From Mytilus californianus (taxonomy: Eukaryota), in the NCBI RefSeq assembly GCF_021869535.1, contig NW_026262668.1:74028001-74092000 (forward strand): a stretch of 64,000 nucleotides of DNA, given 5' to 3'. How positions within the stretch are numbered: position 1 is the stretch's first letter; the number at the start of each line of letters is the position of its first letter. Position numbers: made by a program. Positions 30,001 through 63,000 of the stretch are shown one piece after another.

Positions 30001-33000
30001 AAAACGACTCAAATCCACAATACATAGGTTTTACAGTCACAATAACGAATCCGTTGATCCTTACGATATGCCTTTGTCTCAACTCACTAGCAACAACTTT
30101 TCGCAGTCCTAGATCTTCAGATACCAGAATAACGTCTTAACATTTTGACTGGGTGTAGATGACGGGTGCAGTGGGTCCAGGGAATCTCCACAAGAGAAAG
30201 AAATAGAACATTAATATAATGGAATATGTATACAGCTCTCCCACCAGCAAAAAACCCTTATTGTAAAATATAAGGGCATACACTACAGGCACTTTATTTG
30301 TACTTTATCGAGAAAGTGTACACTATATACGGTATGTACTATCAACTACAAAAACTACCATTCTTTTCTATTCGTTTATTTTGAAATACCCGATATTTTA
30401 TTTTATTTTAAACTCTTGAATATGATAAGTTTAAATGACAACAAAGGAGAGTATTTATTTTACGTAGTTGGGATTATTTTTATCTGATGAAATTTATTCA
30501 CTCTTTCTCTCAGGGAATATTAATGACAAAAAAGGAAGTCTACTAAAAAAAATGATGAATATGAAGACATGTAAATATATTTTGTCATTTTCACTATCCA
30601 ATTTGCCTTCTGTTGTAATCATATTTGAATTTCTTAGATTCGCATTTTTTAAATTCGCACTAATGATAGTTCGATCTAAATGAGTATAAGATCTTTTCTG
30701 AAAAATCCGTTTACCAATCATTGACTTTTGGTTTTGTTTAGGTTTTCGCACTCCAGTGTATAAACTGATAACTATATATCAATAAACTATATATTTCACT
30801 CTAACGTACAATTACAATAAGTAAGAGGATAGATAATGAATTGATATATAGATTACTTCTGGTCGTTATTTTTCAGACAAAGATATCGTTCTTTTGTCGA
30901 TTCATGTGAAAACTACATGCTAAAGCTATTTCAAAAGACGAAATGGTAGGGCTAAACAGTTAATGCAACATTTTAGCATTAGACGACTGTGCATGCGGGC
31001 CTTCCATACCTCTTGGTTTTGTTTTTTTCCAAGCCTTTAATTCGTGGTTTGGTATACAGCCACTTATGCCAACAATAATGAGGGAACTCAAACGTTCAAA
31101 CAGAGATGTTGCGAACTCAGGTATAGCTAGCATAGCTGCTACCATTGGTTTATGTATCATTTTTGAAAATGAAAAATAGGTAGTAAATTTTCAATTGGCA
31201 AAACCCTCTTCAATCACAATATAGGATATATAATTATGACAAATGTAAATAGAATTATCGATACAAAAAAAAAGAAAAAAAGAACAATAAGCATTACCCT
31301 TACAGCATAGCAAGCTATAAAAGCCCCGACATAACAAGTGTAAAACAATTTAAACGAGAAAACTAACGGCCTGATTTGTGTACAAATGTATCTTACTTGT
31401 TACCGATGTCCGTTTGTTTGGTGTAAATTTTATGAGTTCTCCTATGCTGCTCGCAAAGAAAAGCATCTTTCATCATTCAAGTTGTTTCATGTTTTAACAT
31501 TCTATTAGTTTGATAAATATATGTAGAGGCGGGTTGAAGCGACGAGAAAAAAAAAATGTGCGATTTTGCATATTTTGTCAGTTTCAATTCTTAAAAGTGA
31601 TATTTGTCTGACAAAACGGTATTAACTCAGATTTATTTTGGTCAAAACTATATGTTTTACTACTGATCGTTGTTCTCTTTCTAACATGTACCTAAATAGA
31701 TAAAATGAAGAATGGAAAATTTGACGCCTTTTTATACTGTTGATTCATTTATCTTCGTGGGTATCAATTTTCATGGATAGAGAGAAAAAAAAAAGACATT
31801 TCGAAGGATACGGAAATTTGTGGACCGCTGTTTCAAAAAAAAAAAAAAAAAGTTTCAAATACGTAAATTTGTGGATCTCTGTTTGAATAATAATAAACAA
31901 AAGTTAGAAATTCATTGAAAGTGTTATGAATTGTCAAAATCCTCGATTGGACATTCTAGGATAAAGTGTTCTTTTTAAAACTCCGATTACAAGGGTGGAC
32001 AAAGGCTACTAATTATTTCTTTATTTTACAATGTAAAATTTCTTGTCGGAATTTTATAAGGTATTTTAAGCCCTTTGATGTGCAACTGATTGAAAGTTGT
32101 TTTCCCTAATCACGACATAAAACGTGGTCATTAGAAAACTATCAAATTAAGAAACAGCCGAATGATGTTTGCAGCCCAAGCTGGAACCCAAGTCATAAAA
32201 CAATGATACAATTTACTCATCTCGCGGTTATGTTATATATACTCATTGGAACATGTAAACGGCTGTTTTTATTATAAATTTTTAAGTTACATGTCGGATA
32301 TAGTTACTTCACTTGTAATATTGATGAACGATTTTGAAATTAAAATTTTATCTGTATTATGTATGATATGTACCGTTAAATGTCTCCCAAGGATTATAAT
32401 CGAATGGGTTACAAGTGTACATCACGTTGGGTTAATGTGTAAGTAAATTATAATTCTGATAAAATGTTGTCTTTTGTCCAGATAAAAAAAAAAACATGCT
32501 TGAATGACAATAAAGCGAATTATTGTATGAAAAGCAATTTGTGTCCTCCCATCTCCTTGTTTTAACATTTTGGTTGAGTAAAATTTTATTTCGAAAAATG
32601 TCGTTTTTGTCCCGAATAAACAAAAATACATGCTTAAACGAAAATAAATCGGAATATTATTTTAAAAGCAATTTGTGTCCTCCATTCTCCTTTTAATATT
32701 TTGTTACGAAAACATGTCGTTTTCTCCAGAACTATTAAAATTAAAGTAAACAAAAATGTTTCAACGTTAATTTATCGAAATTTTATTTGAAAAGCAATGT
32801 GTATCCTACTTGAACTACCTAATTAAAAGTTTATTGATAAAAAAAATTGAGGTCAAAGGCGTGAAAATAAATGTTCCTGTCATAAAAAATATGACCTACA
32901 GGCAATATCCCGTACTTAATCCTATTGATATTGAATCACCAATAAACCAATTATGTCACGGTAATTGGGCACAGATGCGCAATTCATTTCAGGTATGCGG

Positions 33001-60000: not shown

Positions 60001-63000
60001 TTTTATAATAATCAGCAAAAAAATGTGTTCGTCATGATAGCAAATTCAGGGTAAAGCAAGAAAATTTGACGTCATAAGTGAATTTTGACCGATCAAAAAC
60101 TGAGATCAAACGAACCAACATTGATTTAATATAGATTCTACCACTGCATCGAGTGTGATACGATATTTTGCAACTCGAGACAGTTAAATCTTCAAATTTA
60201 AAGTTTGAAAAACCTAGCTCTCCTTGATTTATGGAAATAACATATCAAGAAAATTTACATGCAATAGTTTGAATTTTGATTAATTGATTGATTGATATTT
60301 CTATACCGGCATCTCAACCTATTATAAGTATATTATGTCCAACTAAGTTCAGAAACCTTCTAACTAAGTGAACGTACTGGCAACAAAAAAAAGTTTTTGT
60401 TAATAAGGGAAAGATCCTAATTGTCTTGGACTCTTGTTGAAGACGTCCAAGTAATACAGATATAAACATGGCTATAATCATTTATTTTCAAATCTACAGA
60501 TTTATTTTTGTCCAATGCTCAACTTTTATTAAAAAATCATCTAAATCACATCGTATTTTGATAACCTAAAATAGTATAATCAGAAAAAAACTATTTTCCT
60601 GTCAACGTTAATTATACCTTACTTGACACTGTAATTGAGATCCAACTTTGTACGAGTAATTTACCCTATGAGGGACATAGAATTTCATTGACAATGTAGA
60701 ATTTGCGGAAAGAGTTAATTTATCTGTTCGTAATCGTGCATTAGCAACCTTTAGGTTTTTATCACATCTTTAAATAACATTTATCTTTTGTTAAACTTTG
60801 GAGTGGAAATTGCGACGATTACAGTTTTAAACGTGTATCTTCTATATACGTTTAAAATTGAAGGATGCAATGAAACCAAGACTGAAGTTAAAATTAGCAA
60901 TGGAGTCAGCAATGGAGTCAGCAATGCAAGCCAGATTGACACATTTGATAGAAATGAGGGAGTGATGCTGATAATTCTCAGCCAGATTACATCAATTCCA
61001 TCGGCCATTGTCACATTAATCATGTGTAGTGTGCTTGTACAAGCTTCCGAAGGAACAACATATTCTCTTGTTCCCTATGTTAACAAGCAAAGCCTAGCGG
61101 TAATTACTGGACTGGTTGGTGCTGGAGCCAACACTGGTGTCATTATATATGAGCTTGTTTTGCTATATGATATAAAACAAAATTGACGAAAAAAGGTCAT
61201 TTACATAAAATCGTAAAATGCAAAAAATACATTTTGCAAATAAAACATTTGACATAAAAGTTCATAATTGATATGAAATTATAATACATAATTGATACGA
61301 AATTACATCAAGTAAAATCATATTTTTTGATAATTTTTATTTATTCTTATATGTACTTTGACAAATGAAGATAAAATGAATGCATTCGACATATATAATT
61401 TATATACGTGTATTATTTGCGTTGCAACAAATACAGTCACAAAATGTTTATATAGAAAAGAAAGAGAAAATATTTTTTTTTTGCAGTTTTGAAACGAATT
61501 TCACTAGTGGAGTAGGAACTTCTGACTTATCTCGGACACCTGAGTTCAATCGCGATTTTTTGTGAGGTTTTTGTTTCTCAATCTATGTGTGTTGTGGTAT
61601 TATTTTTAAGGTAACCGTTGTGTTGCAGTCAATCAGAATTACATGCCCTTTTCAGACGTAATTTCCTTGTAGAAATTTGTGCCAGATATAAAATTATCAT
61701 TCATTGTGTTACCAAGCCTGTATATGTGGTGTTCAATGCGCAAATTAACGTGATCGACATAGAGCATAGTATTTTGCTCAAATCTGTGCTAGAAGTCGTC
61801 TTTAACTTGCCGTGAGGTGATAATTGTTGCTCAATGTTTAAGTGCACATTGTTTTTAAATATACAAATATTGGTGCTGACGTTAAAATTAGATAGAAATC
61901 ATATAACTAGACAGAAAATACGAAAAATAAGTAAAATACCATTATTAAAAAATATTTTTCCACTGTGACTTGACCTATTTATTACATACCTATTCTAGTA
62001 AGTGTATAAGTATAAATCAGGACGTTAGTTGCCTCGTTTTAATTGTTATTTCTTTTATAGCTTATCATGCGGTATGGGATTTGCTCATTGTTGAAGGCTG
62101 TACAGTGACCTTTTGTTGTTTACTTCTATGTAATTTTGTTTCTGATGGAGAGTTGTCTCATTGGCAATCATATCACATTTTCTTATTTTTATATAACGTC
62201 ATTATTGATATCTCGTTCTTTTTTTTTATAAATAATTAAACTTTCTCTAGGTTCACAATACAATTGTAAGTGATGTTTTCAAACTTAATTAATTTTTTTT
62301 AAATTTCCACATTGTCCATTTGTCTATATTGCCGAATATTATTTCCTTTCTAGGGCCGTCGTATTAAGCGAGGTTCATATTCTCTATTGTAAAACCAATT
62401 CATTTGTCAATTGTACTTTTGCGAATATAGTTTTTATTTCAGTTATTAATGGTTACATCTTTTTACAGTTCTAAAACAGATGAGTTTGTGTTTCAAGGTA
62501 CTGTTTGCAGACATAGCAGTTACCTTGAACCAAGGAATGCTCAAACTGATGTAGTCAAGATTCGGTGTAAATAATATTATGTATGGACGTCAATTGGAAT
62601 TCACACATTATAATTTGTATATCAAGATTTCTTAAATTACCCTCAAACCGAGTTCCAGACAATACTTAGAGCAAAATCAGTTTCCTTTTTTAAATGTGCC
62701 TTCGGTATGGTATTTTGATTAAGTGCTTGTTGAATATCTTTCGGTTTTAATTTTAGGTTATGTTATCGTAATACCTGAAATTATGTACAGATCTTATTTG
62801 TTTAATGTAATTGAAAAATTGACCTGCTAATTCGTTAAAATGTTAATACCCCCTTAGTACATCTATATATATTTTAGGTATTACAAAAAATTCTAGTTTT
62901 CAGTATTGTTTTCTTCGTACAAGGTGTATATTTTTTTCTTATTTACCTAGATGTAGGTAATATAATATGTGACAAGAGATTTATTAGGCTGTCAGATTTT

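What the first reader, a model, noticed from the sequence alone, without database searches (positions are those of the whole stretch)
30877..61148. A dismembered, head-to-head inverted paralog of NRT2 spread over ~30 kb
Seen: plus-strand homologs of the first coding exon (30.9, 41.1 kb) and last exon (54.7, 60.8 kb) lie in gene order. Adjacent intron and 3'-flank sequence is also conserved in inverted orientation (e.g. 60390-60740 vs 17160-17540; 55380-55760 vs 15340-15730). I could not find the middle DDCPQG exon on the plus strand. Inference: DNA-level (not retroposed) inverted duplication of the whole gene, followed by pseudogenisation, intron inflation by TEs and local re-duplication of each half. 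This is a birth-and-death array of a gene unexpected in animals, which suggests the locus has been dosage-labile.
Basis: partly seen in the sequence, partly recalled or inferred. Interest (0 to 1): 0.65.

Follow-up and report, generated by a model that had tools for sequence, protein, structure and literature searches.

The report
Decayed inverted duplicate of nitrate-transporter gene
Next to an intact NRT2-type nitrate-transporter gene lies a dead, broken-up mirror copy of it whose two halves were later copied again, which is an ordinary example of gene duplication followed by decay.

Summary
An intact three-coding-exon NarK/NRT2-type gene lies on the minus strand (CDS 20230-15843). The plus strand holds collinear homologs of its 5' flank, exon A, both introns, exon C and its 3' flank.

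The copy is dead. It has 5 stop codons and -1/+1 frameshifts in exon A. Exon B is deleted, the exon C acceptor and first ~112 nt are deleted, and both invariant substrate-site arginines are lost.

The 5' half stops at gene position 19465 and the 3' part resumes at 19468. So this was one whole-gene inverted duplicate, later split by 16.9 kb of inserted DNA.

The two halves were re-copied much later (K2P 0.03-0.08, against 0.24-0.31 for the inverted duplication). Both members of each pair share the same disabling lesions, so the re-duplications copied dead DNA. That does not support "dosage lability".

NRT2 in bivalves, annelids and rotifers, with copy number 0-5 and repeated duplication and loss, is already in a 2025 preprint.

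Verdict: a real but ordinary unprocessed pseudogene.

Not checked: assembly correctness, transcription, synteny, and the window's taxonomic origin.

The parts
19591..20230 (-). Intact gene, coding exon A (ATG at 20230-20228; donor GT at 19590-19589)
   Evidence: Open frame and splice sites read. NCBIfam TIGR00886 NarK family, E 7.5e-56. Pfam MFS_1, E 2.1e-18.
18848..18949 (-). Intact gene, coding exon B (102 nt, phase 1/1, AG...GT)
   Evidence: No family hit on its own.
15843..16669 (-). Intact gene, coding exon C including the TAA stop
   Evidence: TIGR00886, E 9.1e-24.
30743..31166 (+). psiA1: 5' flank plus the first 281 nt of exon A (exon part 30883-31166), cut off by a 410-bp deletion relative to psiA2
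   Evidence: It shares the -1 (after nt 58) and +1 (after nt 144) frameshifts, the stop at codon 9 and R90C with psiA2.
40961..41899 (+). psiA2 block: 5' flank, full-length exon A (41116-41755) and the first ~145 nt of intron 1
   Evidence: 84% identity over 940 nt with 20384-19465. The exon is 89.5% identical, with 5 stops and 2 frameshifts.
41900..58803 (.). 16.9 kb inserted into the paralog's intron 1, between gene-equivalent positions 19465 and 19468
   Evidence: Contents.
49199..51065 (+). Frame-broken ORFs resembling protein-primed DNA polymerase B (a TE or virus-like remnant) inside the insert
   Evidence: Atlas look-alike clusters score 0.98, with 34-51% of their members carrying PF03175. 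Pfam gives no PF03175 hit, even at E<=1.
54504..56080 (+). psiC1 block: intron 2 remnant (54504-54695), exon C core (54709-55123), degenerate exon end and 3' flank
58804..60133 (+). Paralog intron 1 remnant (58804-59148), followed by a local ~360-bp tandem re-duplication of the gene 19042-19171 segment
60133..60200 (+). Site of the deletion that removed exon B. 67 bp here stand for gene 19070-17740 (~1.3 kb).
60200..60783 (+). Paralog intron 2 remnant
   Evidence: 65.6% identity over 636 columns with 17740-17116, E 1e-62. K2P 0.307.
60797..61804 (+). psiC2: exon C core (60797-61148, with a 168-nt internal deletion), degenerate exon end and 3' flank
26738..35023 (+). dup1 copy 1 (8.3 kb), carrying psiA1
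35024..45920 (+). dup1 copy 2 (10.9 kb), carrying psiA2. It sits head-to-tail with copy 1.
   Evidence: Sharp junction at about 35023-35030. K2P 0.028-0.057.
54457..58205 (+). dup2 copy 1 (U1), carrying psiC1
60547..63913 (+). dup2 copy 2 (U2), carrying psiC2 and continuous with the paralog's introns
   Evidence: K2P 0.039-0.080.

Best explanation
The plus-strand pieces are the remains of a single unprocessed pseudogene. It arose as a DNA-level, head-to-head inverted duplicate of the whole neighbouring NRT2/NarK-type nitrate-transporter gene, covering at least 14964-20384 (weakly to 20592).

Inferred order of events:
1. Inverted duplication of the whole gene.
2. Loss of constraint and inactivation of the copy. 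It acquired stops and frameshifts in exon A, a ~1.3 kb deletion that removed exon B, a deletion that removed the exon C acceptor and first ~112 nt, and deletions that removed the TM8 arginine block.
3. Insertion of foreign, partly TE-derived DNA into intron 1, which pushed the two halves apart.
4. Two much younger duplications of already dead sequence. One is a clean 8-11 kb tandem duplication carrying the 5' half. The other is a 3.4-3.8 kb duplicated segment carrying the 3' half.

The most likely present function is none. It is decaying DNA that records one round of duplication and loss in this gene family.

Shown: the homology, collinearity, lesions, relative divergences and shared lesions. 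Inferred: the order of events, the absence of function, and the TE nature of most of the filler.
For: Collinearity:
- 5' flank, exon A, both introns, exon C and 3' flank all match in gene order in the inverted orientation.
- The break coincides to within 3 bp: gene 19465 matches plus 41899, and gene 19468 matches plus 58804.

Lesions:
- psiA2 has 5 in-frame stops, a 1-bp deletion and a 1-bp insertion.
- Both psiC copies lack the acceptor and the first ~112 nt of exon C, and both share 5-bp and 1-bp indels.
- Internal deletions are 13+92 nt in psiC1 and 168 nt in psiC2.
- Exon B is absent.

Conserved residues, using 114 (exon A) and 107 (exon C) of 120 prokaryotic relatives:
- The intact gene keeps the invariant Arg at exon A position 90 (114/114). 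Both psiA copies have Cys.
- The intact gene keeps the invariant Arg in the FARxxGGxxxD block of exon C (107/107). Both psiC copies have it deleted.
- GGWGNLGGG in the gene reads GRWENLGEG in psiA2.

Polarised changes, psi lineage to gene lineage: 14:3 for psiA2, 5:0 for psiC1, 6:0 for psiC2. For psiA2 plus psiC1 that is 19:3, binomial p = 0.00086.

Divergence:
- Non-coding K2P between gene and paralog is 0.24-0.31.
- dup1 is 0.028-0.057 and dup2 is 0.039-0.080.

Shared lesions within each duplicated pair place both re-duplications after inactivation. The dup1 junction is sharp and head-to-tail.
Against: - Pairwise dN/dS is 0.46-0.57, not 1, and exon K2P (0.09-0.14) is well below intron K2P. 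Most of this is expected from constraint on the intact partner. Exon A (dN 0.084) would also fit a period in which the copy was still constrained, or some gene conversion. Without a close outgroup this cannot be resolved.
- psiC2 keeps a 143-codon open frame (60755-61186), probably by chance because its 168-nt deletion is in frame.
- Only part of the 16.9 kb filler can be tied to mobile elements, and Pfam does not confirm the PolB call.
- dup2 is not a simple tandem duplication and its mechanism is unresolved.
- No read, transcript or cross-species data could be consulted. Assembly correctness and transcriptional silence are therefore assumed, not shown.
Confidence: 0.85

Rival explanations
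1. Some of the duplication is an assembly artefact. The two dup1 copies (and perhaps the dup2 copies) would be diverged haplotypes of one locus laid out in tandem, so the true genome has only one 5' piece and one 3' piece.
For: - The dup1 copies are adjacent head-to-tail and differ by K2P of only 0.028-0.057 plus several large indels.
- That pattern can resemble allelic divergence in a highly heterozygous invertebrate genome. This comparison rests on my own knowledge, not on a call.
Against: - The window has no N or gap at any junction.
- dup2 copies are separated by 2.3 kb of unique paralog sequence and are not adjacent.
- Divergence of 3-8%, with a 1.65-kb, a 410-bp and a 224-bp indel, is high for alleles.
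- This rival would not affect the inverted duplication itself, which is 16-30% diverged.
Confidence: 0.07
2. The plus-strand pieces are independent gene fragments picked up and scattered by mobile elements (Pack-type, Helitron-type or transduction events), not the remains of one whole-gene duplicate.
For: - The right edge of both dup2 copies coincides with the right end of a ~750-bp dispersed element.
- A hairpin lies just left of the upstream copy.
- Copies of the same dispersed repeat sit directly beside the break at 41924-42011.
Against: - The 5' and 3' parts end and resume within 3 bp of the same intron 1 position.
- All pieces share orientation and gene order.
- Homology covers both flanks and both introns.
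- No target-site duplications or poly-A tails were seen at the ends of the fragments.
- TE-associated copying may still explain the secondary copy U1, but not the primary duplicate.
Confidence: 0.04
3. The inverted pseudo-exons are kept, or at least used, as a source of regulatory RNA. Transcription across them would give RNA complementary to the intact mRNA, or hairpin RNA, which is processed to small RNAs that tune the nitrate-transporter gene.
For: - The orientation is inverted relative to the intact gene, within 10-45 kb on the same molecule.
- Perfect matches of up to 41 nt (exon A) and 34 nt (exon C) remain, and several runs are 21 nt or longer.
- Pseudogene-derived small RNAs from inverted duplicates are known in mouse oocytes. 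This is recalled, and no paper was consulted.
Against: - Decay looks neutral, with stops, frameshifts and deletions throughout. Non-coding and synonymous divergences are similar.
- There is no sign of selection to keep the exon-matching segments beyond what the intact partner's constraint explains.
- No transcript or small-RNA data are available here.
- Rfam found nothing at gathering thresholds.
Confidence: 0.05

Closest known systems
Unprocessed (duplicated) pseudogenes formed by segmental duplication
   Same: - It retains intron and flank homology to the parent gene.
- It lies beside the parent gene.
- It carries stops, frameshifts and exon deletions.
- The later duplications copy already dead sequence.
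   Different: Nothing essential differs. The particulars are the head-to-head inversion, a 16.9 kb split within intron 1, and separate re-duplication of each half.
Animal NRT2 (NNP/NarK-type MFS nitrate transporters) reported in bivalves, annelids and rotifers (bioRxiv 10.1101/2025.11.20.689417; abstract and passages read)
   Same: - The parent gene is a NarK/NRT2-type MFS transporter with both substrate-site arginines.
- The preprint reports copy number 0-5 and repeated duplication and loss, which this locus illustrates.
   Different: - The preprint's main text has no occurrence of 'pseudogene' or 'tandem'. It also discarded models with fewer than 12 TM helices.
- Its supplements were not visible to me.
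- I could not place the window's gene in the preprint's clades or confirm that the window is from one of those animals.
Inverted-repeat pseudogene loci that yield endogenous siRNAs (mouse oocytes; recalled, no paper consulted)
   Same: Pseudogene segments are in inverted orientation to the parent gene, with perfect matches of 21 nt or more.
   Different: There is no evidence of transcription or small RNAs here. The arms are far apart (10-45 kb) and interrupted.
Maverick/Polinton-type or other protein-primed PolB-bearing elements (name recalled)
   Same: ORFs at 49199-51065 resemble clusters annotated as 'DNA polymerase type B, organellar and viral'.
   Different: - Only a frame-broken fragment is present.
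- There is no PF03175 hit in Pfam.
- No other element genes were seen among the ORFs of 75 aa or more, and the inverted-repeat scan found no convincing terminal inverted repeats.

Membership tests
NarK/NNP (NRT2-type) nitrate/nitrite MFS transporters - parent gene | Significant match to the family profile | tested here: met
   TIGR00886 matches exon A at E 7.5e-56 (189.8 bits) and exon C at E 9.1e-24 (84.2 bits). Each exon alone is below the whole-protein cutoff of 311.7 bits. The joined model was deliberately not searched.
NarK/NNP (NRT2-type) nitrate/nitrite MFS transporters - parent gene | Two conserved substrate-site arginines (TM2 and TM8; R87 and R368 in A. nidulans according to the passage read) | tested here: met
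   Arg at exon A position 90 is invariant in 114/114 relatives. Arg at exon C position 117 (about residue 365 of the model) is invariant in 107/107. Both are present in the intact gene. The equivalence to R87/R368 is inferred from position, not from an alignment to that protein.
NarK/NNP (NRT2-type) nitrate/nitrite MFS transporters - parent gene | Glycine-rich nitrate-signature motif in the N-terminal half | tested here: met
   GGWGNLGGG is present in exon A. Caveat: the comparison set was fetched with this motif, so its invariance there is by construction.
NarK/NNP (NRT2-type) nitrate/nitrite MFS transporters - parent gene | Twelve transmembrane helices; nitrate transport activity | not tested
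   Testing topology needs the joined model, which was left out. Transport activity needs an assay.
Unprocessed pseudogene - plus-strand pieces | Homology to the parent extends into introns and flanks (so the copy is not retroposed) | tested here: met
   Intron 1, intron 2, 5' flank and 3' flank blocks have E-values from 1e-25 to 1e-173.
Unprocessed pseudogene - plus-strand pieces | Disabling lesions in the coding sequence | tested here: met
   There are stops, frameshifts, a missing exon B, a missing exon C acceptor, and loss of both invariant arginines.
Unprocessed pseudogene - plus-strand pieces | Relaxed constraint on the copy's lineage | tested here: met
   Polarised changes are 19:3 (psiA2 plus psiC1), p = 0.00086. 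Pairwise dN/dS is 0.46-0.57.
Unprocessed pseudogene - plus-strand pieces | No functional product or expression | not testable with these tools
   No transcript or protein data are available.
Tandem segmental duplication - dup1 | Head-to-tail adjacency of two copies with one sharp junction | tested here: met
   Copy 1 ends at about 35023-35030, where copy 2 begins. Homology is sharp at both outer boundaries.
Tandem segmental duplication - dup2 | Head-to-tail adjacency | tested here: not met
   The copies are separated by 2.3 kb of unique sequence. 52221-54456 is unrelated to 58206-60546.
Hairpin / endo-siRNA-generating pseudogene locus | Transcription through the inverted arms, and small RNAs mapping to them | not testable with these tools
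   Only the sequence prerequisites were checked, namely inverted arms and exact matches of 21 nt or more.

The most novel reading that the evidence does not exclude
The inverted pseudo-exons still share perfect matches of up to 41 nt with the intact mRNA and lie head-to-head with it. On this reading they are transcribed and give double-stranded or antisense RNA, such as endo-siRNA or piRNA precursors. That RNA would regulate a nitrate-transporter gene in an invertebrate animal, making the locus a pseudogene-based regulator of a recently recognised 'plant-like' animal transporter.
Probability: 0.05. Interest if true: 0.55.

Novelty: new member of a known kind. Interest (0 to 1): 0.2.

Why it matters
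The main value is for annotation. The plus-strand pieces should be marked as one pseudogene, not as gene fragments or extra NRT2 copies. That matters when counting NRT2 copies in animal genomes, where copy number has been reported to vary from 0 to 5.

The locus also gives a concrete, datable example of the "repeated duplication and loss" proposed for animal NRT2. It shows that the later copy-number changes here involved dead sequence, so they say nothing about selection on dosage.

It does not open a new question.

Tried and rejected
- **PDB sequence search, exon A and exon C separately.** There was no NarK-family hit. The only match was a weak generic MFS match to SV2B (E 0.034), so no structure-based residue mapping was possible.
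- **The search for related loci with exon A in genome contigs.** 238 pattern matches, none confirmed. I replaced it with a motif scan.
- **Pfam on the PolB-like ORFs at E<=1.** No PF03175 hit. The only results were a sub-threshold Endonuclease_7 hit (21.5 bits against a cutoff of 23.6) and a Dynamin_M hit at E 0.043 that I take as chance.
- **Search for terminal inverted repeats bounding the 16.9 kb insert.** None was convincing. The 45583-45702 / 53816-53892 arms are a 7-bp microsatellite.
- **Search for target-site duplications or poly-A at the 41899/58804 break and at the dup2 ends.** Nothing clear was found. A possible TTAACA-like overlap at the break is too degenerate to call.
- **Simple tandem model for dup2.** Rejected.
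- **Gene conversion as the explanation for the low exon divergence.** Not needed, because dS (0.18-0.27) is close to intron K2P (0.24-0.31).
- **Rfam and ARAGORN on the whole window.** Nothing found.

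
Full report
**1. What is in the window**

The window has 64,000 bases, no N and about 32% G+C.

An intact gene lies on the minus strand, with three coding exons and GT-AG introns:
- exon A: 20230-19591
- exon B: 18949-18848
- exon C: 16669-15843, including the stop

The model has 522 codons by coordinate arithmetic.

The joined coding sequence was not translated as one protein, searched or folded. 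The whole-protein profile cutoff and the 12-helix topology therefore stay untested.
- Exon A matches the NarK-family profile TIGR00886 at E 7.5e-56, and exon C matches it at E 9.1e-24.
- Exon A also matches Pfam MFS_1.
- Exon B alone matches nothing.
- PDB sequence searches were uninformative.

**2. Checking the observation**

- Exon A homologs lie on the plus strand at 30877-31161 (truncated) and at 41110-41781 (full length, 69.6% amino-acid identity, E 1.9e-92).
- Exon C homologs lie at 54667-55161 and 60797-61174 (E 3.3e-57 and 7.5e-46).
- The two non-coding examples hold: 15062-15735 vs 56080-55378 (E 2e-110), and 17116-17587 vs 60783-60347 (E 1.3e-43).

A more sensitive search gives a collinear chain, listed as gene coordinate and plus-strand coordinate:

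| Gene (minus strand) | Plus strand | Segment |
|---|---|---|
| 20384-19465 | 40961-41899 | 5' flank, exon A, start of intron 1 |
| 19468-19126 | 58804-59148 | intron 1 |
| 17740-17116 | 60200-60783 | intron 2 |
| 16556-16396 | 60797-60957 | exon C core |
| 16229-16037 | 60956-61148 | exon C core |
| 15694-15429 | 61335-61595 | 3' flank |
| 15158-14964 | 61600-61799 | 3' flank |

Controls:
- Paralog orientation: 33 hits, 7562 aligned nt, up to 908 bits.
- Opposite orientation: 8 weak hits, up to 89.7 bits, all from dispersed repeats.
- 20 shuffled targets: 1 hit in total, 39.7 bits.

**3. The missing middle exon**

Exon B has no plus-strand homolog.
- Its best tblastn E-value is 3.9.
- An exhaustive local alignment over 26000-64000 scores 16, against 15.7 +/- 1.4 for 40 shuffled queries.

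The map explains the absence. Gene 19070 to 17740 (about 1.3 kb, containing exon B) corresponds to only 67 bp of the paralog, at 60133-60200. This is a deletion in the copy. Just upstream, a segment equivalent to gene 19042-19171 has been locally re-duplicated with a period of about 360 bp.

**4. One copy, later split**

The 5' block ends at gene position 19465 (plus 41899). The 3' part resumes at gene position 19468 (plus 58804). Two independently captured fragments would not be expected to abut within 3 bp of the same intron position, in the same orientation and order. The simplest reading is one whole-gene inverted duplicate whose intron 1 received 16.9 kb of extra DNA (41900-58803).

That filler contains:
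- Frame-broken ORFs at 49199-51065. Their Atlas look-alikes are clusters named "DNA polymerase type B, organellar and viral" (score 0.98, with 34-51% of members carrying PF03175). Pfam gives no such hit even at E<=1, so this remains a lead.
- Copies of a dispersed repeat that I call R1 (41924-42011 and 51462-52220).
- One of the duplicated 3' halves.

I found no clean terminal repeats or target-site duplications for the insert as a whole. "Intron inflation by TEs" is therefore only partly shown.

**5. The copy is dead**

psiA2 (41116-41755) is 89.5% identical to exon A. It has stops at codons 9, 17, 104, 149 and 211. It also has a 1-bp deletion after nt 58 and a 1-bp insertion after nt 144.

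psiA1 shares both frameshifts and the stop at codon 9. It ends after nt 281 because 410 bp present in psiA2 are deleted.

In both psiC copies, clear homology begins only at gene 16558-16556 and is joined to intron 2 position ~17116. The acceptor and the first ~112 nt of exon C are therefore gone.
- Both copies share a 5-bp deletion and three 1-bp indels near nt 632-659.
- They differ in internal deletions: 13+92 nt in psiC1 and 168 nt in psiC2.

For residue-level evidence I fetched 120 prokaryotic loci carrying the glycine-rich motif of exon A. Of those, 114 encode an exon A relative (42-50% identity among the 25 best hits listed) and 107 encode an exon C relative.
- Of 69 near-invariant exon A positions, the intact gene matches 53. 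psiA2 matches 44 and has one stop.
- The invariant arginine at exon A position 90 (114/114) is Cys in both psiA copies.
- GGWGNLGGG reads GRWENLGEG in psiA2. This motif is invariant in the comparison set by construction.
- The invariant arginine of the FARxxGGxxxD block in exon C (107/107) is kept by the gene and deleted in both psiC copies.

These two arginines sit at about residues 90 and 365 of the model. They probably correspond to the substrate-binding R87 and R368 of the fungal transporter quoted in the preprint passage. That equivalence is inferred from position only.

I polarised the differences between the gene and each copy against the outgroup majority:
- psiA2: 14 changes on the copy's lineage against 3 on the gene's.
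- psiC1: 5 against 0.
- psiC2: 6 against 0.
- psiA2 plus psiC1: 19 against 3, binomial p = 0.00086.

Pairwise dN/dS is 0.46-0.57. That is roughly what one constrained lineage and one unconstrained lineage would give. A short functional period for the copy cannot be excluded.

**6. Relative timing and the re-duplications**

Non-coding K2P between the gene and the copy is 0.24-0.31, and dS is 0.18-0.27.

dup1 is a clean head-to-tail tandem duplication, 26738-35023 followed by 35024-45920.
- It has a sharp junction and K2P of 0.028-0.057.
- Copy 2 has extra segments of 1.65 kb, about 120 bp (twice), 410 bp and 224 bp.
- The 410 bp is homologous to exon A, so it was deleted from copy 1.

dup2 consists of 54457-58205 and 60547-63913, with K2P 0.039-0.080.
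- It is not head-to-tail. The 2.3 kb between the copies carries the paralog's intron remnants and is collinear with the second copy.
- 52221-54456 is unrelated to that spacer.
- The right edge of both copies coincides with the right end of the ~750-bp R1 element. That hints at a TE-associated origin, which I could not establish.

Each duplicated pair shares its disabling lesions, so both re-duplications happened after inactivation. They are structural turnover of dead DNA. The "dosage-labile" inference is not supported. No absolute dates are given, because neither the organism nor its mutation rate is known.

**7. Comparison with what is known**

This is an unprocessed pseudogene next to its parent, which is a textbook product of birth-and-death evolution.

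Ocaña-Pallarès et al. 2019 (PMC6400420, passages read) treated nitrate assimilation genes as restricted to autotrophs and osmotrophs. A November 2025 preprint (10.1101/2025.11.20.689417; abstract and passages read) reports the following:
- NRT2 homologs occur in bivalves, annelids and rotifers.
- Copy number ranges from 0 to 5.

A search for "nitrate transporter" + NRT2 + bivalve found 3 papers and no further relevant report. The preprint's main text contains neither "pseudogene" nor "tandem".

**8. What stayed unchecked**

I could not retrieve eukaryotic relatives, test synteny, place the gene in the animal NRT2 clades, or confirm that the window comes from an animal.
- The only hint on origin is that the Atlas look-alike clusters for two TE-like ORFs are dominated by arthropod and mollusc records.
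- Assembly correctness and transcription could not be tested.

**9. Verdict**

The biological gloss is not: dosage lability is unsupported, and a gene "unexpected in animals" is already in print. Interest is low (0.2). I rate it a new member of a known kind.

Noticed in passing
window 1996-6614 (-): Four consecutive long ORFs in different frames (166, 629, 311 and 300 aa) lie in a stretch of higher G+C (0.38-0.40, against ~0.32 for the window as a whole). None has a Pfam hit. The 629-aa ORF resembles large clusters of eukaryotic 'hypothetical proteins' in the Atlas, mostly from Arthropoda and Mollusca (score 0.96). This is probably a mobile-element or virus-like gene with frameshifts or introns.
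   Followed up: partly
window 22864-27542 and 35024-35830: There are satellite-like arrays with a period of about 113 bp and higher-order repeats (for example 24966-25850 vs 25924-26738 at 71%) between the gene and the first pseudo-exon. The left boundary of dup1 (26738) sits exactly at the end of one such block.
   Followed up: partly
window 44567-44797: A 231-bp near-perfect nested palindrome (arms 93-96% complementary) is present only in dup1 copy 2. It looks like a MITE-type insertion made after the tandem duplication.
   Followed up: no
window 16747-17018, 17936-18040, 28565-28662, 31302-31397, 37010-37123, 40349-40412, 41924-42011, 51462-52220, 56321-56513, 57494-58205, 62054-62195, 63210-63918: A dispersed repeat family ('R1') occurs in both orientations, with a ~750-bp long form that has defined ends. 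Two fragments lie in intron 2 of the intact gene. A 31-nt copy of its left terminus lies inverted at 46393-46423. The family was not identified.
   Followed up: partly
window 45583-45702 and 53816-53892: Inverted arms about 8.1 kb apart, built from a 7-bp ATTCAAA microsatellite, flank the PolB-like remnant. The left arm is also in dup1 copy 1 (34714-34776). They may be element termini or only low-complexity sequence.
   Followed up: no
window 49199-49570 (+): The first PolB-like ORF fragment has a sub-threshold Endonuclease_7 (HNH-like) match, E 2.3e-4, 21.5 bits against a cutoff of 23.6.
   Followed up: no
window 54417-54456: A hairpin with a 10-bp stem lies immediately left of the sharp left boundary of the upstream dup2 copy. 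Its meaning is unknown.
   Followed up: no
window 13744-13933 vs 18434-18250: An inverted repeat pair (74% over 192 nt) has one member downstream of the gene and the other in its intron 2. It is probably another dispersed element.
   Followed up: no
window 7765-7850 and 10777-10868: Two short palindromes of 86-92 nt, 77-84% self-complementary, lie upstream of the region studied.
   Followed up: no
window 19794-20150 (+): A 118-codon open frame lies antisense to exon A of the intact gene. It is most likely a chance antisense ORF.
   Followed up: no
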